From Eledone cirrhosa (taxonomy: Eukaryota): a stretch of DNA of 64,000 nt. Below are positions 3,768-58,400 of this stretch, piece after piece. Under the pieces are notes generated by a model. That model was not told the DNA's origin. It ran no database searches and saw nothing but the letters and a program-made list of their open reading frames with translations. The translations under genes and the position numbers were made by a program. The stretch's first letter is position 1. Each line of letters begins with the position of its first letter. Where the stretch lies: NCBI GenBank assembly GCA_964016885.1, contig OZ024745.1:12586001-12650000 (forward strand). Reading direction: 5' to 3'.

Positions 3768-3795
3768 CTGAAGAAGGGCTTATGCCCGAAACGTC
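3768..3795 (+). ncRNA. Minimal Penelope-type hammerhead motif near the 3' end of a (TA)n-flanked element (about 3203-3882)
   Basis: CTGAAGA-A-GGGC-TTAT-GCCC-GAAA-CG-TC: intact core, 4-bp stem II, palindromic ACGT stem III, GUC site. Stem I pairs poorly. AATAAA follows at about 3830. Confidence 0.7.
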
Positions 3796-6300: not shown

Positions 6301-6361
6301 TATATATATATATATTCATTCAAAATATTAACAAAAATAGAACTTCATTGTGATCAAGTAT

Positions 6362-6426
6362 ATTTTATTATACATATTTCAGAGGTACTGAGCTAACTTC
6401 AACAGTACGTCCTCATCAGATAAAAT
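6362..6426 (-). ncRNA. Type I hammerhead ribozyme within a short fold-back (IR about 6312-6372 / 6486-6546)
   Basis: Minus strand: ATTTTAT-CTGATGA-GGACGTACTG-loop-CAGTACCTCT-GAAA-TATGTA-TA-ATAAAAT. 7-bp stem I, canonical core. Confidence 0.8.
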
Positions 6427-6963
6427 AAGATGATGCATGACATACCCTGACATAGTAGATGGTTAAGATCCAGTCATGGTATAAATATAATAAAATATAC
6501 TTGATCACAATGAAGTTCTATTTTTGTTAATATTTTGAATGAATATCAATAACTCCGGAAAACCTTTTTTCTGTTGAGTGCTTCCAATCTATTGTAAAAT
6601 TAATTCTTTGATGTATTCATCGAACCTTGTTTAACCTTTAAGTATAGATATATATATATATATACGCACACCCACACACAGTGGAACCTCGGTTCACGAC
6701 CATGCAAGCTGCCAACAACACTTGGCGACAAGCTGGGAGTATCGGCGGTAAAGCATCACTTGCTGTGTAGTTAGTTACTATGGTAACATCTCTCTGCCTT
6801 TCAAACACTGTATACCTTTCTCTCTCACAGAATTTCTCTCTCAATATTTCGTATGAAAAAAAAAAAAAAAAAAGTTTCGGCTTACGAACATTGGTGGCCT
6901 TCAAGAAGGAATTAGGTCGAGAACCGAGGTTTCACTGCATATGCTTCTTTATGTGTGTATACG

Positions 6964-14404: not shown

Positions 14405-14455
<51 letters not shown>

Positions 14456-14495
14456 GATATTAATAAATGGAAACTATGTTTATAAAACCATATTT

Positions 14496-14558
14496 ATTTC
14501 ATTATACATATTTCAAGGACACCAAGTTAAATTATGGTGTGCTTTCATCAGATAAAAT
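14496..14558 (-). ncRNA. Type I hammerhead ribozyme immediately upstream of, and antisense to, a Penelope endonuclease fragment
   Basis: ATTTTAT-CTGATGA-AAGCACACCA-loop-TGGTGTCCTT-GAAA-TATGTA-TA-ATGAAAT. Same family as 6362-6426, with a covarying stem II. Confidence 0.82.
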
Positions 14559-14597
14559 ATAATATAGAACAGTTTTATAAATAAATATTGACATACC

Positions 14598-15149
14598 CTT
14601 AAAGCTCTTGACAAATGCTTCCCTAGAACACATAGGTATTACTCAATTTTTAATAGACATACTATAAAATTAACTTATTCTTCCACCAAAAATTTAGCGC
14701 AAAATATTAATAGAATTAATAATAGAAATTTAAAACCTAACCAAAATACCAATAATAATCCAGGCAATATCCAATTTGATAAATGTAACTGTAGAAATAA
14801 ATCTAACTGTCCGTTAAATAACAATTGCTTAGCTAAAAATATAGTATATAATTGTAATGTAAAAACTAATTTAAATTCATTTAACTATGTGGGATACACT
14901 TCCACAGAGTTTAAATCCCGCTTCAATAATCATAAAAATTCTTTTACAGATCTAAACAAAAAATCTTCAACTTCTCTATCTAGCCTATTATGGGACCTAA
15001 AACTAGAGAACGTTGAATATTCGTTGATTTGGAATATTATTTCAAAAGCTACACCTTTTAACTCCTCTTCAGAAAACTTAAGGAATAATTTATTCAGTTG
15101 CTGTAGACATAGATTAAACTCAACGTTTAAATATAAATTTAAAATGTAA
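14598..15149 (+). mobile_element. Penelope-like element: linker, Cys motif and GIY-YIG endonuclease (5'-truncated, internally deleted)
   Basis: Open frame LDKCFPRTHRYYSIFNRHTIKLTYSSTKNL..CNCRNKSNCPLNNNCLAKNIVY..NYVGYTSTEFKSRFNNHKNSF..TSLSSLLWDLK..WNIISKA..NLRNNLFSCCRH. Confidence 0.88.
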
Positions 15150-16190
15150 TATATAAATAATTAATTAATTCTATTAATATATTGGACCTGTCGATAAATC
15201 ATTATATTCCTTCATCTTTTTTGACTGATTATACACTCAAGTAAAAATAACTTTTCTTCCTAAATATAAATAAATATAATAAACTATTCTAGAGAAATAT
15301 AGTGAGGGCTCTTGAAATGAGAAAATATTTCTTATATTTTTTATTATTTATTATTTGATAGTTTCTCCTATTTTCGAAAGTTTATCCTTTCAAAGTTTGT
15401 TTATTTCTCTTATGAATATAAAATTAAGGTAAATGTACGTAGAAAATTTCTATACTAAATCTATTAAACATACTATTATTTTGAAATTATAACTTGAAAA
15501 TATTCTATAATATTTTAAAGTTATATTGTTTTTAAAGTTATATTGCTTATAATTATATTTCCAAATCGTAATATAATTCTTTTGTATTTTATGTGCTTCA
15601 ATTATACTTCTCTCTCTATATGTGTGTATATATGTATATGTGTGTATTGACATACATGTACATATGTTTTATGCGTGTATATCTATCTGTATGTATATAT
15701 ATACGTGATGCGTATCTACCTATTTGTGTGGGTACATATATGTATGTAGATGTGGGAATTGTGTATGTACATGTGCGTGTATATCCATACAGTTAGATTG
15801 CACTTATGTATAGTGATTATCCCAAGATTCGTGACAAATAGACATATAATAACAGCCATAAATACATAACAGGTAATCTTATAAAACTTATATTAAAAAA
15901 ATGTTGTTTAATAACATAAAGTATGTATAACATAAAATTTCCTTTAATATCTTAACCGTTTCGACGGCTATTTCTGGACTCGAGAAATAGCTGTCGAAAC
16001 GGCTTGAGCTCTGCCGTCGGAGTCCTGAACTTTTTCCTATTACTCATTCTACTACCCTAAGTATCGAGTACTCTGGTGCGTTATGGTCCATCTGGTTCCT
16101 TACCACATTTCCTTCGTTATATATATATAGAGAGTCCAGAAATAGCCGTCGAGACGGCTTGAGCTCTGCCGTCGGGTTCCTCAACATTTT

Positions 16191-16588: not shown

Positions 16589-16639
<51 letters not shown>

Positions 16640-16848
16640 CGAAGGAAATGTGGTAAGGAACCAGATGGACCATAACGCACCAAAGTACTCAATACTTAGG
16701 GTAGTAGAGTGGGTAATAGGAACAAGAATGACCCCGACGGCACAGCTCAAGCCGTTTCGACGGCTAATTCTGGACATACACATACACTAGGTCCAGAATT
16801 AGCCGTCGTAACGGCTTGAGCTCTGCCGTCGGGGTCGTACTTGTTCCT

Positions 16849-16924
<76 letters not shown>

Positions 16925-16984
16925 CTTTCTCCCGAATGAAACAGTTCTAGTCCTGTAGAAGCCATTTCTATATATATATATATA

Positions 16985-42193: not shown

Positions 42194-42308
42194 GCTTGAA
42201 ATATTTGAAGAACTACCTGACGTTGATAATGTTTTTGTACCTGTCGGTGGAGGTGGCCTTATTGCTGGCATCGCTGCATATCTAAAGCAAGTAAACCCAG
42301 ATATAAAA
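42194..42308 (+). CDS. Same gene, exon with the tetraglycine phosphate loop
   Basis: caag|g [38 protein letters not shown]|gtaagg. The 5' boundary is uncertain. Confidence 0.88.
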
Positions 42309-42801
42309 GTAAGGATATATCTTCTTCTTCTTTGCTCACTTGTTCTTGGGAGGGTTATAGGGGCAAAATCTTAAATCAATCCTTCCAGTGGTTCCAGGCA
42401 CATGTGGACAGATTTTACAAGCAAAACAAACCAGCAGGAGACCCAGAGGTAGACCCCGTTCAAGGTGGTTGGATAATATCAATAAGCTCAGCTGGTCTCA
42501 CATGGGGATCCAGTCAGATCTATTGGAGGTGGTTGAAATATAAATCTACTTGTAAAATGAAAAATTAATTTTCTCTACTCACCACAGGTTCTCATACCTC
42601 TAACACTAAAAAGGTCCCCCCACCCCTAGATTAGAAGCTTCCTCTTTAACCCATTTTTACAATCCAAGTCAGCATATTGGCAGAATATTAGAGTAGGAGC
42701 AATATTTCTACTTAAAACTATAAGTGACCAAACAAGATACAAGATATCAAATACATTTGTTATCATGCTTGCTATTTACTATCTTCTATTTTGAAATGTA
42801 G

Positions 42802-45045: not shown

Positions 45046-45409
45046 CACAGCAAGTACAGAGCAAAATCAACATGATGCTGTCTTCTTCAATTACTGAGAC
45101 TTTGTACATCCTGAATATTCACCATAAAAACAATTAGAAAGGATTAGTGACGCCAGATGTGTGAACCTGGCAACTACACCTTGACATCAACCCATACATC
45201 GCAACTGATCCAAAGAATCACTTACCAGACACCCTACTCTCCAGACATGGCTTCAACTGACTTACTTGAGGACTAACAAGATATAATAATTGTTTCTACT
45301 TTAGGCACAAGGCCAGCAATTACCCAGTACATTACTGGTACTTTATTTTATCGACCTCGTAAGGATGAAAGGCAAAAAAACAATTAATGAAAGTAAAATA
45401 GCTGTGAAA

Positions 45410-48400
45410 TGCCTCCATACACTTAGCCCAATAATCCTTTATCAAGTTACGTCACTTGTGCCTCCATACACTTAGCCCAGTGATCCTTCATCAAGTTACG
45501 CCCCTTGTGCCTCCATACACTTAGCCCAATAATCCTTTATCAAGTTACGTCACTTGTGCCTCCATACACTTAGCCCAATAATCCTTTATCAAGTTACGCC
45601 ACTTGTGCCTCCATACACTTAGCCCAGTGATCCTTCATCAAGTTACGCCCCTTGTGCCTCCATACATTTAGCCGAGTGATCCTTCATCTAGTTACGCCCC
45701 TTGTACCTCCATACACTTAGCCCAATAATCCTTCTTCAAGTTACGCCCCTTGTGCCTCCATACACGTAGCCCAGTGATCCTTCAGGAAGTTACGCCCCTT
45801 GTGCCGCCATACACTTAGCCCAGTGATCCTTCTTCAAGTTACGCCCATTGTGCCTCCATACACTTAGCCCAGTGATCCTTCTTCAAATTACGCCCCTTTT
45901 GCCTCCATACACTTATCCCAGTGATCCTTCATCAAGTTACGCCCCTTGTGCATCCATACACTTAGCCCAGTGATCCTTCTTCAAGTTACGCCCCTTGTGC
46001 CTCCATACACTTAGCCCAGTGACCCTTTATCAAGTTACGCCCCTTGTGCCTCCATACACTTAGCCCAGTGATCCTTCTTCAAGTTACACCCCTTGTGCCT
46101 CCATACACTTATCCCAGTGATCCTTCATCAAGTTACGCCCCTTGTGCTTCCATACACTTAGCCCAGTGATCCTTCTTCAAGTTACGCCCCTTTTCCCTCC
46201 ATACACTTAGCCCAATAATTCTTCTTCAAGTTACGCACTTTGTGCCTCCATACACTTAGCCGAGTGATCCTTCTTCAAGTTACGCCCCTTGTGCCTCCAT
46301 ACACTTAGCCCAGTGATCCTTCTTTAAGTTACGCCCCTTCTGCCTCCATACACTTAGCCCAGTGATCCTTCTTCAAGTTACGCCCCTTGTGCATCCATAC
46401 ACTTAGCCCAGTGATCCTTCTTTAAGTTACGCCCCTTCTGCCTCCATACACTTAGCCCAGTGATCCTTCTTCAAGTTACGCCCCTTATGCCTCCATACAC
46501 TTAGCCCAGTGATCATTCATCAAGTTACGCCCCTTGTGCCTCCATACACTTAGCCCAATAATCCTTCTTCAAGTTACGAACCTTGTGCCTCAATACACTT
46601 AGCCCAGTGATCCTTCATCAAGTTACGCCCAGTGTGCCTCCATGCACTTAGCCCAGTGAACCTTCTTCAAGTTACGCCCCTTCTGCCTCCATACACTTAG
46701 CCCAGTGATCCTTCATGAAGTTACGCCCAGTGTGCCTCCATGCACTTAGCCCAGTGATCCTTCTTCAAGTTACGCCCCTTCTGCCTCCATACACTTAGCC
46801 CAGTGATCCTTCTTCAAGCTACGCCTCTTGTGCCTCCATACACTTAGCCCAATAATCCTTCTTCAAGTTACGAACCTTGTGCCTCAATACACTTAGCCGA
46901 GTGATCCTTCATCAAGTTACGCCCCTTGTGCCTCCATACACTTATCCCAGTGATCCTTCTTCAAGTTACGCGCCTTGTGCATCCATACACTTAGCCCAGT
47001 GATCATTCATCAAGTTACGTCCCTTGTGCCGCCATACACTTAGCCCAGTGATCCTTCTTCAAGTTACACCCCTTGTGCCTCCATACACTTAGCCCAGTGA
47101 TCCTTCATCAAGTTACGCCTAGTGTGCCTCCATGCACTTAGCCCAGTGATCCTTCTTCAAGTTACGCCCCTTCTGCCGCCATACACTTAGCCCAGTGATC
47201 CTTCATCAAGTTACGCCCCTTGTCCCTCCATACACTTAGCCCAGTGATCCTTCTTCAAGTTACGCCCCTTGTGCCTCCATACACTTAGCCGAGTGATCCT
47301 TCATCAAGTTACGCCCCTTGTGCCTCCATACACTTATTCCAGTGATCCTTCTTCAAGTTACGCCCCTTGTGCCTCCATACACTTAGCCCAGTGATCCTTC
47401 TTCAAGTTACGCCCCTTGTGCCTCCATACACTTAGCCCAATAATCCTTCTTCAAGTTACGCCCCTTGTGCCTCCATACACTTAGCCCAATAATCCTTCTT
47501 CAAGTTACGCCCCTTGTGCCTCCATACACTTAGCCCAGTGATCCTTTATCAAGTTACGCCCCTTGTGCCTCCATACACTTAGCACAATAATCCTTCTTCA
47601 AGTTACGCCCCTTGTGCCTCCATACACATAGCCCAGTGATCCTTCTTCAAGTTAGGCTCGTTGTGCCTCCATACACTTAGCCCAATAATCTTTTATCAAG
47701 TTACGCCCCTTGTGCCTCCATACACTTAGCCCAGTGATCCTGCTTCAAGTTACGCCCCTTGTGCCTCCATAGACTTAGCCCAGTGATCCTTCTTCAAGTT
47801 ACGCCCCTTGTGCCTCCATCCATTTAGCCCAATAATCTTTTATCAAGTTACGCCCCTTGTGCCTCCATACACTTAGCCCAGTGATCCTTCTTCAAGTTAC
47901 GCGCCTTGTGCCTCCATACACTTAGCACAATAATCCTTCTTCAAGTTAGGCTCGTTGTGCCTTCATACACTTAGCCCAATAATCCTTTTTCAAGTTACGC
48001 CCCTTGTGCCTCCATACATTTAGCCCAGTGATCCTGTTTCAAGTTACGCCCCTTGTGCCTCCATACACTTAGCCCAGTGATCCTTCATCAAGTTACGCCC
48101 CTTGTGCCTCCATACACTTAGCCCAGTGATCCTTCATCAAGTTACGCCCCTTGTGCCTCCATACACTTATCCCAGTGATCCTTCATCAAGTTACGCCCCT
48201 TGTGCCTCCATACACTGAGGCACAAAAGTCGTAACTTGAAGAAGGATCACTGGGCTAGGTGTATGGAGGCACAAGGGGCGTAACTTGAAGAAGGATCACT
48301 GGGCTAAGTGTATGGAGGCACAAGGGGCGTAACATGATGAAGGATCACTGGGCTAAGTGTATGGAGGCACAAGGGGCGTAACATGAAGAAGGATCACTGG

Positions 48401-51400
48401 GCCAAGTGTATGGAGGCACATGGTGCGTAACTTGATGAAGGATCACTGGGCTAAGTGTATGGAGGCACAAGGGGCGTAACTTGATGAAGGATCACTGGGC
48501 TAAGTGTATGGGGGCACAAGGGGCGTAACTTGAAGAAGGATCACTGGGATAAGTGTATGGAGGCACAAGGGGCGTAACTTGATGAAGGATCACTCGGCTA
48601 AGTGTATGGAAGCACAAGGGGCGTAACTTGAAGAAGGATCACTGGGCTAAGTGTATGGAGGCACAAGGTGCGTAACTTGAAGAAGAATTATTGGGCTAAG
48701 TGTATGGAGGCAAAAGGGGCGTAACTTGAAGAAGGATCACTGGGCTAAGTGTATGGAGGCACAAGGTTCGTAACTTGAAGAAGAATTATTGGGCTAAGTG
48801 TATGGAGGCACAAAGGGCGTAACTTGAAGAAGGATTATTGGGCTAAGTGTATGGAAGCACAAGGGGCGTAACTTGATGAAGGATCACTGGGATAAGTGTA
48901 TGGAAGCACAAGGGGCGTAACTTGAAGAAGGATCACTGGGCTAAATGTATGGAGGCACAAGGGGCGTAACTTGATAAAGGGTTATTGGGCTAAGTGTATG
49001 GAGGCACACTGGGCGTAACTTGATGAAGGATCACTGGGCTAAGTGTATGGAGGCACAAGGGGCGTAACTTGAAGAAGGATCACTGGGCTAATTGTATGGA
49101 GGCACAAGGGGCGTAACTTGATAAAGGGTTATTGTACTAAGTGTATGGAGGCACAAGGGGCGTAACTTGATGAAGGATCACTGGGCTAAGTGTATGGAGG
49201 CACAAGGGGCGTAACTTGAAGAAGGATCACTGGGCTAAGTGTATGGACCCACAAGGGGCTTAACTTGAAGGAGGATCACTCGGCTAAGTGTATGAGGCAC
49301 AAGGGGCGTAACTTGAAGAAGGATCACTGGGCTAAGTGTATGGAGGCACAAGGGGCGTAACTTGATTAAGGGTAATTGGGCTAAGTGTATGGAGGCACAA
49401 AGGGCGTAACTTGATAAAGGGTTATTGGGCTAAGTGTATAGAGGCACAAGGAGCTTAACTTGAAAAGGATCACTGGGCTAAGTGTATGGAGGCACAAGGG
49501 GCGTAACTTGAAGAAGGATCACTGGGCTATGTGCATGGAGGCACAAGGGGCGTAACTTGAAAAGGATCACTGGGCTAAGTGTATGGAGGCACACTGGGCG
49601 TAACTTGATGAAGGATCACTGGGCTAAGTGTATGGACCCACAAGCGGCGTAACTTGAAGAAGGATCACTGGGCTAAGTGTATGGAGGCACAAGGGCCGTA
49701 ACTTGAAGAAGGATCACTGGGCTAAATGTATGGAGCACAAGGGGCGTAACTTGAAGAAGGATCACTGGGCTAAGTGTATGGAGGCACAAGGGGCGTAACT
49801 TGATGAAGGATTATTGGGCTAAGTGTATGGAGGCACAAGGGGCGTAACTTGATGAAGGATTATTGGGCTGAGTGTATGGAGGCACAAGGGGCGTAACTTG
49901 ATAAATGATCACTGGGCTAAGTGTATGGAGTCACGAGGGGCGTAACTTGATAAAGGATCACTGGGCTAAGTGTATGGAGGCACAAGGGGCGTAACTTGAT
50001 GAAGGATTATTGGGCTAAGTGTATGGAGCCAAACGGGGCGTAACTTGAAGAAGGATCACTGGGCTAAGTGTATGGAGGCACAAGGGGCGTAACTTGATGA
50101 AGGATTATTGGGCTAAGTGTATGGAGGCACAAGGGGCGTAACTTGAAGAAGGATCACTGGGCTAAGTGTATGGAGGCACAAGGGGCGTAACTTGAAGAAG
50201 GATCACTGGGCTAAGTGTATGGAGGCACAAGGGGCGTAACTTGATAAAGGATTATTGTGCTGAGTGTATGGAGGCACAAGGGGCGTAACTTGATGAAGGA
50301 TTATTGGGCTAAGTGTATGGAGGCACAAGGGGCGTAACTTGAAGAAGGATCACTGGGCTAAGTGTATGGAGTCACGAGGGGCGTAACTTGATAAAGGATC
50401 ACTGGGCTAAGTGTATGGAGGCACAAGGGGCGTAACTTGATGAAGGATTATTGGGCTAAGTGTATGGTGCCAAACGGGGCGTAACTTGAAGAAGGATCAC
50501 TGGGCTAAGTGTATGGAGGCACAAGGGGCGTAACTTGATGAAGGATTATTGGGCTAAGTGTATGGAGGCACAAGGGGCGTAACTTGAAGAAGGATCACTG
50601 GGCTAAGTGTATGGAGGCACAAGGGGCGTAACTTGAAGAAGGATTATTGGGCTAGGTGTATGGAGGCAAAAGGGGCGTAACTTGATGAAGGATCACTGGG
50701 CTAAGTGTATGGAGGCACAAGGGGCGTAACTTGATGAAGGATTATTGGGCTAAGTGTATGGAGGCACAAGGGGCGTAACTTGAAGAAGGATCACTGGGCT
50801 AAGTGTATGGAGGCACAAGGGGCGTAACTTGAAGAAGGATTATTGGGCTAAGTGTATGGAGGCACAAGGGGCGTAACCTGATGAAGTATCACTGGGCTAA
50901 GTGTATGGAGGCACAAGGTGCGTAACTTGAAGAAGGATTATTGGGCTAAGCGTATGGAGGCACAAGGGGCGTAACTTGAAGAATGATTATTGGGCTAAGT
51001 GTATGGAGGCACAAGGGGCGTAACTTGAAGAAGGATCACTGGGCTAAGTGTATGGAGGCACAAGGGGCGTAACTTGATGAAGGATCACTGGGCTAAGTGT
51101 ATGGAGGCACAAGGGGCGTAACTTGAAGAAGGATCACTGGGCTAAGTGTATGGAGGCACAAGGGGCGTAACTTGAAGAAGGATCACTGGGCTAAGTGTAT
51201 GGAGGCACAAGGGGCGTAACTTGAAGAAGGATCACTGGGCTAAGTGTATGGAGGCACAAGGGTCGTAACTTGAAGAAGGATCACTGGGCTAAGTGTATGG
51301 AGGCACAAGGGGCGTAACTTGATGAAGGATCACTGGGCTAAGTGTATGGAGGCACAAGGGGCGTAACTTGAAGAAGGATCACTAGGCTAAGTGTATGGAG

Positions 51401-51743
51401 GCACAAGGGGCGTAACTTGAAGAAGGATCACTGGGCTAAGTGTATGGAGGCACAAGAGTCGTAACTTGAAGAAGGATCACTGGGCTAAGTGTATGGAGGC
51501 ACAAGGGGCGTAACTTGAAGGAATACTGGGCTAAGTGTATGGAGGCACAAGGGGCGTAACTTGAAGAAGGATCACTGGGCTAAGTGTATGGAGGCACAAG
51601 GGGCGTAACTTGATGAAGGATCACTGGGCTAAGTGTATGGAGGCACAAGGGGCGTAACTTGAAGAAGGATCACTGGGCTAAGTGTATGGAGGCACAAGAG
51701 GCGTAACTTGAAGAATGATTATTGGGCTAAGTGTATGGAGGCA
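45410..51743. repeat. 49-bp intronic satellite with a strand switch at 48216/48217 (giant inverted repeat)
   Basis: TGCCTCCATACACTTAGCCCAGTGATCCTTCTTCAAGTTACGCCCCTTG, about 57 units, followed by about 72 units of its reverse complement. Confidence 0.96.
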
Positions 51744-54320: not shown

Positions 54321-55188
54321 TTTCAAATTTGACCTTTGGCGCCTAAAAATATCTTGGTAACACAACTAAACACCATATATAGTCATTTGTATGTATGGAC
54401 CTGTAACTCCTGATGAAGTGATAGGGGCACCCTAATGACATACAGCATTTCTTGGCCATTTAAAACCTGGTGAAGCTCATCTCTTCTCTCATAAGGCAAG
54501 CAATATGTGACAGAGGAATCAATGATAAAATGGAGTGTAGACTTATATTTGACATCAATATTTTGCTGATTTTCACCAACTTCAACATCAAAAAGATACC
54601 AAAACACCCGAAGTGATTGCATTACAATGAAACACTGTTTTAATACATTTTTACAGAATATCTTTAGTACTTGCTGTCTTTACATTTTCATTTCTCTCGG
54701 CATGTGATTGGCTGAAAGTAAACAAATATTCAAGAAACTGGCACTACAACGCTATTAGCTGTCAGTCCAGTGGAAAACAGGCGAAGGTGACGTCACTCGT
54801 CAACATCGTTTATTTCCGTATTACTACCACGCGTAAGTGGAGTTTTCACGCGGTTTTTTGAGAGAGAGAGGGAAGAGGAGAGAGAGAGGGAAGACTTAAA
54901 AGGGCCAAATTAGAAAACAAATAGAAAAAACAAATAGAAAACAAGTCATGGTTATAAAGCATATCGATGTAAGTGGAGTTACTTAAATGAAAATATAGGT
55001 GGCCCTTAAAAGGGCCAAATTAGAAAACAAATTTAAGTTAATTAGAAAACAAGTCATGGTTATCAATGTAGAAAACAGGTCATTCATAAATTTAAGTTTT
55101 ATAATCAAATTTTTTTTACCAACAAATATGACAGCTAATAGCGTTGTAGTGCCCGCAATTCTGTATCTTTACGTATATTGCGCATAGA

Positions 55189-55450: not shown

Positions 55451-56154
55451 ATCTTTCAAAAATGAAGGTCCACATTTCGTCGACTTCAATACACTTTATT
55501 ACATTTTATTGTATTGTAAACATTAACTTTTATGGAAATTGTATTACAAAATTTCAATTTAGTTCGATTTTTTGGAATTTATTTAACAAACATGGAAAAA
55601 TAAGAAAAATAAGAAAAAGAATAAAATAATTTGATTGCCTTTAATAAAGAAGATAAATAGAGTAGAACTGATTTCCAAGTCATACTAATGAAACAAGGTT
55701 TTTTTCCATTACTGATATTATCTGTCTGCCGCAAGTCCTGGTAGAAGATGCTACATGAACTAAAGTATTTTACTGAAGGACGCAACATGCTGCAGGATCG
55801 AAGAAACGAGCCCATGACTTTATAATGGTTAGTCCAGTACCGTAACCTCTAAGGCATGTGCCTTCACAGAGGAAAGGTAAATCATATTATAACAGATTAG
55901 ATGGGTACTATGTTAGATATTACTATGTGTCATATTATACCAAAGAGGAAGTGAGCTGTATAATAAACATTGATATCAGGTTGATTCAATAACTACCCGG
56001 TCCCAAATATGAACCCATGAACTAATGGTCGTCAGTCAAACACTTTAACCATTGTATGTATGTATACACGTATGGATCGATGGATGTATGTATGTGTGTA
56101 TACATGTATGTATGGATGTATGCATACATGTATATATGTAAGTATGTATGCGTG

Positions 56155-58400
56155 TATGAAAACAACTGGAAGGACTTCAGGAGCTCGGTCTATGAGGCTT
56201 CAGCAGAGTTCCTTGGCTTTGTCACAAGAAAACAAGGACTGGTTTGATGAGAATGACCAGGAGGTCAAGGCTCTGCTAGACAGAAAACAAAAGGCACTTG
56301 ATGCAGTTCTTAAAGGTGGTAGCTCTGTTGGTGACAATTATGAGTGTTACAGACAGGTAAAGAAGGAAGTGCAGGTGAAACTCAGGGCTATGCAAAATAC
56401 CTGGTGGAGCAACAAAGCAGATGAAGTTCAAGTGGCATCTGACGGCAACAATGTGAAACTGCCGCACTTTCTACTCACAGAGGTGTATGGCCCTTTCAGC
56501 TCTCCAGTGGCCCCTTTGAGATCGAAAGATGGCAAGCAATTACTGCGTGACCCAAAAGACACTCAACAGATAGAGAGATCACTTTGATGAGCTCTTAAAC
56601 CAACCATCCCAGGTTGATGATGATTTCCTTTGTTCCATTCCTATTGAACCAGTGAAGCATATGAGATGGCTAATGTATCTTCTCTTGCAGAGGAGACTTC
56701 TGTTGTGCATAAGCTGAACTGTGGTAAGTCTCCTGGTATGGATGGTCTGAGTGGAGCGGTTTTGAAGTGTGGTGGTGAAAACTTCACGCAGCGCATGACT
56801 GACCTCATGAAAATGGTGTGGGAAGATAAGAATGTCCCACAAGAAGGATGCGCTCATGGTGATTCTCCATAAAGTAAAGGACGGCAAGGACAAATGTGGC
56901 AATTATCATGTCATATCCCTTCTTTCAGTAGTTGGTAAAGTTGTGTCGAATATTGATGGATAGATTGATCCCAAGAGTTGCTCTGAATGTGTTGCCTGAG
57001 TCGCAGTGTGGGTTCAGAAACGAAAGAGGAACAGTGGATATGATCGTTTCTGCTCGGCAGCTGCAAGAAAAGTGTATCGAACAATGTATGGACCTCTACC
57101 AGGTCTTTGTTGACTTGACAAAGGCCTTTGACACTGTCAATCGAACTGCATTGTGGGAAAAAATCCAAGGTAGGGTAGAAGATTCTGCATCTTTTCCATG
57201 ATGACATGAAGGCTTTGGTCAGTATTGGTGGTAGCATCTCTGAACCAATATCAGTTGAAAATGGAGGGAAGCAGGGGGACATTCCGGCTCCAACTCTGTT
57301 TCCCTTATATTTTACGATAGTGTTTCTCATGGCATTCAAATATTGTTCTCATGGGGTTTACATCAGGTATCGCACTTCAGGAAGGTTGTTCAACACCAGG
57401 CGCTTTGGTACAAGCACAAAAGTATTAACATCTATAATCCGAGAGTTTTTGTATGCAGACGACTGCGATCTTTTTGCACGCTCACAAAGTGACATGCAGC
57501 ATATTATGAACTCTTTTTCTGCAGCCTGCAGCATTTTAGGCGTCACAATAAGCTTGGAAAAGACTGTTGTGATCTATCAGCCAGTACCTGGAAACGAGCA
57601 CACTGCACCAAGTGTGTACGTGTACGGAAAGAGGCTAAACGTTGCTGACAAGTTTCTTTACCTTGGTAGTACGTTGAACACTTCATGCACACATGATAAT
57701 GAAATATCCTTAAGAATCAAGAAAGCCAGTGATGCTTTTGGACGGCTGCATCAACGTTTATGATCCAGACGAGGTATCACTATCGAAACCAAGGTGAAAG
57801 TGTATCTGACTTGTGTCGTCTCCTCTTTACTTTATGTTTGTGAAACGTGGGTCACATACAGAAAGCACCTCAAGGATCTGGAGAGATTTCCCCAACAATC
57901 TCTTCATAAGTTACTTGGGGTGTGGTGGAAAATGTTCGCCAGTGACTTGGAAGTTCTAGAACGGAGCAGGTGCGTGACTATAGAGAGCATAATCTTTCGG
58001 TTGAGGTGGTACAGTCACGTGGTCCGGATGTCTGATGATCGTATTCCAAAACAACTTCTCTATGGAGAACTGTGTGAAGGAAGGCGACCACCACATAAAC
58101 CAAAATGGCGGTATCGGGACTGTATCAGGGGCACCTTGGCTTGTGCTGGAATTTCATCTGACGAATGGGAGAAAATGGCTGACGAGCGTGTGAAGTTTGA
58201 TCAAGTCAGGTGGTGAACACTTTGAAACTCGTCGGAGAGAACACCTAACACTGAAAAGGAAGGTGAGGATTGAGACTGTTCTGAACTGCCTGCTGTTGAA
58301 CATCATCTGGTTTGCCAGCACTGTGGTCGAGTCAGCCTGAGCAAAGCTGGTTTGATTAGACATGAATAAAGTCATATCAGTAGACCTCATGTAGATCATG
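56155..58400 (+). mobile_element. RTE-clade (BovB-like) LINE ORF2, 5'-truncated and decayed
   Basis: ENKDWFDEND, GKSPGMDGL, LPESQCGFR, FVDLTKAFDTVNR, GGKQGDIPAPTLF, FLYADDC, FLYLGS, RLRWYSHVVRMSDDRIPKQLLYGEL and a terminal CQHC..H zinc knuckle; several frameshifts and stops. Confidence 0.95.

What the first reader, a model, noticed from the sequence alone, without database searches (positions are those of the whole stretch)
14496..15149. Hammerhead linked to a Penelope endonuclease, with stem II covariation against the 6362 copy
Seen: the HHR is antisense and directly 5' of the GIY-YIG fragment, the geometry of an inverted pLTR on a 5'-truncated PLE. The copies at 6362 and 14496 share stems I and III. 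Stem II differs (GGAC-GUACUG/CAGUAC-CUCU versus AAGC-ACACCA/UGGUGU-CCUU) but keeps its pairing and a C·C mismatch at the fourth position. Inference: selection on structure, and a candidate for the mobilising enzyme class.
Basis: partly seen in the sequence, partly recalled or inferred. Interest (0 to 1): 0.7.

Follow-up and report, generated by a model that had tools for sequence, protein, structure and literature searches.

The report
Two-armed Hydra-type Penelope retrotransposon insertion
This is a broken, two-armed copy of a known kind of ribozyme-carrying jumping gene; the link between ribozyme and endonuclease is real but already described, and the useful extra is that such copies almost always pair one short end with one long end, which likely records how the enzyme copies its RNA from both sides of a chromosome cut.

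Summary
Observation confirmed. A type I hammerhead (HHR) lies antisense at 14497-14557, joined at 14599 to a 5'-truncated RT-linker/GIY-YIG fragment. The adjacency is not chance: 29 of 36 other copies carry this HHR region in sense 1.6-2.3 kb downstream, and 20 carry an inverted piece at their own 5' break. [quoted passage not shown] The 6362 copy belongs to a sister family with its own ORF (54% identity), so it needs no enzyme from the 14496 family; the window's endonuclease has a 57-bp deletion. Stem II covariation holds across about 25 lineages (about 8 independent double changes) and the fourth pair stays open (C·C 52,927 copies, C-G 233). Beyond the finding: 116 of 120 two-armed insertions pair one short with one tailed end, none two short ends, and 26-32% of arms that reach one initiator-like base stop there. 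I read this as twin priming at two start sites. The scan noted the same pattern before, in this and other genomes. New member of a known kind.

The parts
14407..14455 (.). (TA)n microsatellite target into which the left arm runs
   Evidence: sequence
14452..14603 (-). Family A inverted arm (pLTR piece), ending at the short terminus, no tail; reaches 151 nt 5' of that terminus
   Evidence: 96% to the 3' end of copy L043
14497..14557 (-). Type I hammerhead motif, family A; predicted cleavage 3' of base 14503
14599..14603 (.). Head-to-head junction of the two arms, 5-nt overlap shared by both
14599..15149 (+). 5'-truncated ORF end: RT thumb/linker, CxCx5C motif, GIY-YIG-type endonuclease; 57-bp in-frame deletion near 15076 removes the CxxC motif and the conserved Glu
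15150..15956 (+). Part of the long 3' UTR; homology stops at 15956 where another repeat begins; the element's own 3' pLTR was not found in the window
6310..6481 (-). Family B left arm, short terminus in (TA)n; 5' end 2 nt from the initiator-like hotspot
6363..6425 (-). Type I hammerhead motif, family B
6486..6644 (+). Family B right arm: 59 nt before the short terminus plus the 88-nt tail, ending in (TA)n

Best explanation
The locus is a dead two-armed insertion of a Hydra-type Penelope-like retrotransposon in a (TA)n repeat, likely made when the element's enzyme cut both strands and copied its RNA from each broken end, one copy starting at the short terminus and one at the tailed terminus, after which the two truncated copies were joined head to head. 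Shown: the anatomy, the family link between HHR and ORF, the clade motifs, two fixed 3' termini about 87 nt apart, their pairing one-short-one-long, and a fixed 5' stop upstream of the HHR. Inferred: twin priming, that the 5' stop is the transcription start of a pLTR promoter, and that uncleaved RNA is the template (most arms run through the predicted cleavage site). The HHR is under lineage-level selection for its fold and, with a 2-3 bp palindromic stem III, would cleave mainly as a dimer; cleavage was not tested. The 6362 copy is the same kind of product from a sister family, copied from an RNA that likely began in the pLTR.
For: HHR-ORF link: 29 of 36 loci sense, 20 of 36 inverted at 0.2-1.7 kb upstream, 2 tandem. 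Motifs RWR/RWH, DKT, CxCx5C, CxxC-E-N-CxH, one Cys only between the two Tyr strands match the Hydra definition (PMC8557442 section 11). EN model pLDDT 88.6; best Foldseek rows are GIY-YIG nucleases T4 EndoII and I-TevI. End pairing in sets not chosen on the tail: 82 mixed, 2 long-long, 0 short-short of 84; in tail-chosen sets 34 mixed, 2 long-long of 36. The long ORF-bearing arm is short-ended in 8 and tailed in 6 of 14 family A pairs. 5' stop: 377 of 1,453 (B) and 673 of 2,082 (A) copies of the anchor motif have a non-templated base just before it; in fetched loci that coincides with loss of upstream homology in 69 of 71 cases; a TATA box lies 31 nt upstream in B. In vitro, an anole PLE cuts and extends both strands, starts at two sites that bound the tail, is predicted to be a dimer and uses uncleaved RNA (PMC11167929).
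Against: The Foldseek matches are weak (best E 0.14) and Pfam finds nothing in the family A proteins; one homolog has a sub-threshold GIY-YIG hit. No tree with named Hydra sequences was built. Four long-long pairs exist (two are complex loci). 70 loci across these sets showed no facing partner within the stretch fetched, so one-armed insertions also occur or were cut off. Junctions are mixed: 31 overlaps, 6 blunt, 31 with extra bases of 68 rough BLAST junctions, about 7 of them spurious, so microhomology joining is not established. Family A has no clear TATA box at -30. About half of the extra G bases could come from the partner arm. PMC11167929 saw no difference in start site between strands.
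Confidence: 0.62

Rival explanations
1. Same element, but the inverted arm arises by fold-back or self-priming of a single cDNA (or of an antisense template), and the tail is lost from one end when the endonuclease resolves the intermediate.
For: Proposed in PMC3846280 (self-priming on an antisense template) and PMC8557442 (tail from EN resolution). Nine of 68 junctions have arms ending within 10 nt of each other and several carry short fold-back inserts.
Against: A single sense-templated cDNA predicts that the longer arm always carries the tail; it does in only 6 of 14 family A pairs. Arms of very unequal length are common.
Confidence: 0.2
2. Two RNAs and an asymmetric enzyme dimer: each subunit primes one strand but the protein geometry, not a shared RNA, fixes which start site each uses; the 5' hotspot is an RT pause at a stem-loop rather than a transcription start.
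For: Fits the end pairing equally well. A stem-loop is predicted to begin at the family B hotspot.
Against: G is twice as common as composition predicts at the first non-templated base (160 of 377 and 256 of 673 against 19%), as for a copied cap; both families share a YCACTA context; B has a TATA box at -31.
Confidence: 0.15
3. Chance adjacency of an unrelated HHR repeat and a PLE fragment, with the 6362 element a non-autonomous retrozyme moved by the 14496 family.
For: Only the four duplicated copies of this region have the HHR at this exact junction; most family B copies are short and non-coding.
Against: The same HHR is the 3' end of 29 of 36 family A copies; family B UTRs lead upstream to their own ORF in at least 10 of 22 loci.
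Confidence: 0.02

Closest known systems
Hydra clade of C-terminal EN+ PLEs, including Hydra-1_Obim (Craig et al. 2021, PMC8557442)
   Same: Single RT-EN ORF, RWK-type, DKT, CxCx5C, CxxC and CxH motifs, no CCHH, 3' HHR, (TA)n target, inverted 5'-truncated copy (noted there for Penelope-13_HM).
   Different: Units of about 3.9 kb (A) and 4.6 kb (B) with 1.6-2 kb 3' UTRs against 'generally <3 kb'; a different HHR from that listed for Hydra-1_Obim; a long stem II with an open fourth pair not seen in the 26 Hydra HHR rows of File S2; an 87-nt tail; about 50,000 HHR copies.
PLE hammerheads (Cervera and de la Peña 2014, PMC4209133)
   Same: Type I motif in the pLTR, long helix II, small palindromic helix III, families full of compensatory changes.
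   Different: First stem II pair is mostly A-U or G·U and sometimes unpaired; conserved pyrimidine-rich mismatch at pair 4 ('mismatch' does not occur in that paper's main text).
Poseidon_Ac in vitro mechanism (Frangieh et al. 2024, PMC11167929) and the optional tail (Arkhipova et al. 2013, PMC3846280)
   Same: Two reverse-transcription starts bounding a tail; both strands cut and extended; tail on one of the inverted pLTRs.
   Different: Tail 87 nt rather than 30-40, lying upstream of the ATG; both termini end in AT-rich bases that merge with the (TA)n target; the one-short-one-long rule is near strict rather than optional.
Non-LTR retrozymes (bioRxiv 10.64898/2026.07.22.740005)
   Same: Short, non-coding, type I HHR-bearing pieces related to pLTRs.
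   Different: These copies are inverted pairs, not tandem repeats, and each family tested has its own ORF-bearing copies.

Membership tests
EN+ Penelope-like element | Single ORF with RT and C-terminal GIY-YIG endonuclease | tested here: met
   Longer copies join a YRDD RT to this C-terminus; homolog P0029 hits RVT_1; EN fold closest to GIY-YIG nucleases, weak E-values
EN+ Penelope-like element | pLTRs in tandem or inverted, 5' truncation, optional tail | tested here: met
Hydra clade | RWK motif and DKT in place of DKG | tested here: met
   RWR/RWP and RWH, DKT in L038, L049, L143; DKT-type in 54 of 54 and RW[KRH] in 46 of 54 long proteins held
Hydra clade | CxCx5C linker; CxxC and CxH around the conserved E and N; no CCHH | tested here: met
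   the one family B copy read in full (L143) has substitutions at two of these cysteines
Hydra clade | (TA)n target and canonical 3' HHR | tested here: met
Hydra clade | Length generally under 3 kb | tested here: not met
   about 3.9 kb and 4.6 kb; a typical trait, not a strict criterion
Hydra clade | Placement in an RT/EN phylogeny with named Hydra families | not testable with these tools
   Named reference sequences exist only as supplement text; compared by eye
Type I hammerhead ribozyme | Conserved core with three helices | tested here: met
   Core invariant and 94% of cells paired in 23 representatives
Type I hammerhead ribozyme | Self-cleavage | not testable with these tools
   Only about 3 of 136 arm ends lie within 3 nt of the predicted site (family A rechecked by hand)
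Non-LTR retrozyme | Tandem non-coding HHR units without an own ORF | tested here: not met
   Family B has ORF-bearing copies and inverted, not tandem, arrangement

The most novel reading that the evidence does not exclude
Penelope-like elements insert by concerted twin priming on one RNA: a single enzyme complex loads at two start sites 87 nt apart and hands one to each end of a double-strand cut, so every two-armed copy has exactly one tail; many templates are capped RNAs begun at a pLTR promoter and copied through an uncleaved hammerhead to the cap, and the invariant unpaired C in stem II is a contact that controls when the ribozyme may cut. This genome holds tens of thousands of such records from a Hydra radiation.
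Probability: 0.4. Interest if true: 0.62.

Novelty: new member of a known kind. Interest (0 to 1): 0.33.

Why it matters
The finding itself is ordinary: HHRs in PLE pLTRs and inverted 5' copies are published. What could matter is the record of mechanism. How PLEs make inverted ends, and what their ribozyme does, are open questions; a near-strict one-short-one-long rule, a fixed 5' stop with excess G, and a conserved open pair in stem II each give a direct bench test. [quoted passage not shown]

Tried and rejected
Rfam scan: no hammerhead family listed. Pfam on the window peptide and on a 543-aa family A frame: 0 families. PDB sequence search: 0 matches. VIA-align second look: machine busy twice, no result. 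Sequencing runs: no RNA holder listed, so expression was not examined. Idea that family B is non-coding: rejected. Idea that arms start at the HHR cleavage site, prompted by the 6362 right arm ending 3 nt from it: not supported (the script's family A coordinate was wrong, so A was rechecked by hand). Idea that covariation is only palindrome repair: unlikely, because the C·C between corrected pairs is never closed in any lineage. Nematis or Neptune assignment: rejected on CCHH absence and DKT. Loci L067-L096 were left out of end-pairing counts because the query itself had one short and one tailed end; L107, L113, L232, L241, L256 and L270 were dropped as duplicates. Monomer energy of the HHR fold could not be evaluated with a 2-nt loop.

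Full report
Observation. The frame at 14592-15149 encodes an RT-linker and endonuclease end. The window is G000:C5:12,586,001-12,650,000 of a 3.0-Gb genome, and the region is present four times on C5 at 97-99% identity, so those four count as one event. The host was not determined; the only homologs with a species name were from Octopus.

Is the adjacency chance? No. The 36 other places scored by the search match from 14599 onward, and in the 25 read at the junction the upstream sequence continues as ORF. In 8-kb stretches around these 36, the HHR-bearing end lies in sense 1.6-2.3 kb downstream in 29, partly in 2 more, and is missing in 5; an antisense piece sits at the 5' break in 20 (15 with the whole HHR), 0.2-1.7 kb upstream; 2 have a sense copy in tandem before the ORF start. 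The unit is about 3.9 kb: ORF about 2.2 kb, 3' UTR about 1.6 kb. In the window the inverted arm is 14452-14603, the sense arm 14599-15956, with a 5-nt overlap; a 57-bp in-frame deletion removes CxxC and the conserved Glu, and the 3' end is lost after another repeat begins at 15957.

Which element? Longer copies show RWR, DKT, YRDD, CxCx5C and CxxC-E-N-CxH, without CCHH. These are the defining features of the Hydra clade (PMC8557442; I read passages, section 11 and parts of the supplement), which also lists (TA)n targets, HHRs, an Octopus family and an inverted 5' copy. Pfam does not detect the domains. An AlphaFold model of an undeleted copy's endonuclease (pLDDT 88.6) has T4 EndoII and I-TevI as best matches, at weak E-values (0.14-0.6).

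The 6362 copy. It is a 335-bp two-armed insertion in (TA)n. Walking up its UTR led to ORF-bearing copies: at least 10 of 22 loci have PLE coding sequence directly upstream, L143 over 565 aligned residues at 54% identity to family A. It is a sister family, not a dependant.

Covariation. A pattern free in stem II finds 49,126 copies, control 0. In 23 hand-picked variants 94% of cells pair and 9 of 18 pairs change on both sides, above all 500 shuffles in score and above slid controls; these rows are related, so I also mapped changes on a flank tree of 25 clusters: by my reading about 8 independent double changes at pairs 2, 3, 5 and 6. Pair 4 is never a standard pair in 23 of 23: C·C in 21 of 25 clusters, C·U 2, C·A 1, U·C 1. 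With a slightly looser pattern, C·C occurs 52,927 times and C-G 233 times, the 100 listed being scattered over many families. Selection acts on master lineages, not on these dead copies. Family-level covariation in PLE HHRs is already stated in PMC4209133 (passages).

Ends. Each family has two 3' termini about 87 nt apart; in tandem copies the tail is simply the sequence before the ATG. Facing pairs: family A by endonuclease 14 mixed of 14; family B by HHR or UTR 25 mixed and 2 long-long of 27; other loci in genome order 17 of 17 (read by hand); hotspot-chosen loci 16 of 16 and 10 of 10; tail-chosen 18 of 19 and 16 of 17. Total 116 mixed, 4 long-long, 0 short-short of 120; only the 84 pairs not chosen on the tail could have shown short-short. 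Many loci had no facing partner in view (22, 19, 7, 11, 6 and 5 in the scripted sets). The literature I saw calls the tail optional on one of the inverted pLTRs (PMC3846280, passages) and ties it to two RT start sites (PMC11167929, main text). Six searches showed no paper stating a strict rule, but the library lacks most subscription papers, including Arkhipova 2006, and bioRxiv supplements are closed.

5' stop. Arms pile up 170 (B) or 186 (A) nt before the short terminus, at the A of a shared YCACTA. The base before it is non-templated in 26% (B) and 32% (A) of exact motif copies, and is G in 42% and 38% of those against 19% by composition. B has a TATA box at -31; A has only AT-rich sequence. 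About half of the 27 G cases inspected could be templated by the partner arm, so the cap reading is suggestive. Pol II starts in pLTRs are known (PMC2377424, listing only).

Mechanism. Most likely, RNA from the pLTR promoter or read-through RNA is bound at two sites; both strands of (TA)n are cut; each end primes a cDNA, one per site; both run through the uncleaved HHR, stop early or at the RNA's 5' end, and are joined. A single fold-back cDNA is disfavoured because the long arm is short-ended in 8 of 14 pairs. Whether both arms come from one RNA is untested.

Earlier notes of this scan (opened after these counts were largely made) report the same end pairing, fixed starts and twin priming in this and other genomes; they are not independent support.

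Verdict: real, correctly read, known kind. Interest 0.33, carried by the mechanistic regularities rather than by the HHR-endonuclease link.

Noticed in passing
window 1-64000; G000:C5 12.59-13.17 Mb: The region is present in four copies 174-208 kb apart at 97-99% identity, a recent segmental array or an assembly artefact.
   Followed up: partly
window 42195-42311 (+): Exon of a PLP-dependent enzyme (Pfam PALP, E 3e-10; serine/threonine dehydratase-like by recall), so the array may duplicate this gene.
   Followed up: partly
window 3768-3791 (+): A second, minimal HHR type with a short GC-rich stem II, likely from another PLE clade; similar motifs in L029.
   Followed up: no
window 15957-16190 and 16600-16950: An abundant hairpin-rich short repeat that interrupts the PLE and often lies in (TA)n next to these elements (also L074, L076, L101).
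   Followed up: no
tails of families A, B and others, e.g. window 6549-6644: A short motif (ACTCC...GAGTGCT) is kept in the tails of nearly all families although the rest diverges: a candidate protein-binding or start signal.
   Followed up: partly
window 45400-51520: A 49-bp tandem array arranged as a large inverted repeat.
   Followed up: no
window 56021-58213 (+): Broken LINE-type reverse transcriptase (Pfam RVT_1, E 4e-8).
   Followed up: partly
window 54977-55021 (-): Histone 3' UTR stem-loop match at the Rfam gathering score, with no histone frame seen nearby.
   Followed up: no
L229-L252, L283-L297: Arms that reach the 5' hotspot are mostly short-ended (19 of 24 in B), as expected if the short-site enzyme runs ahead on a shared RNA, though arm length alone could also explain it.
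   Followed up: partly
P0099, P0101: Hydra-type PLE fragments are annotated in public databases as 'GATA zinc finger domain-containing protein 14-like'.
   Followed up: no
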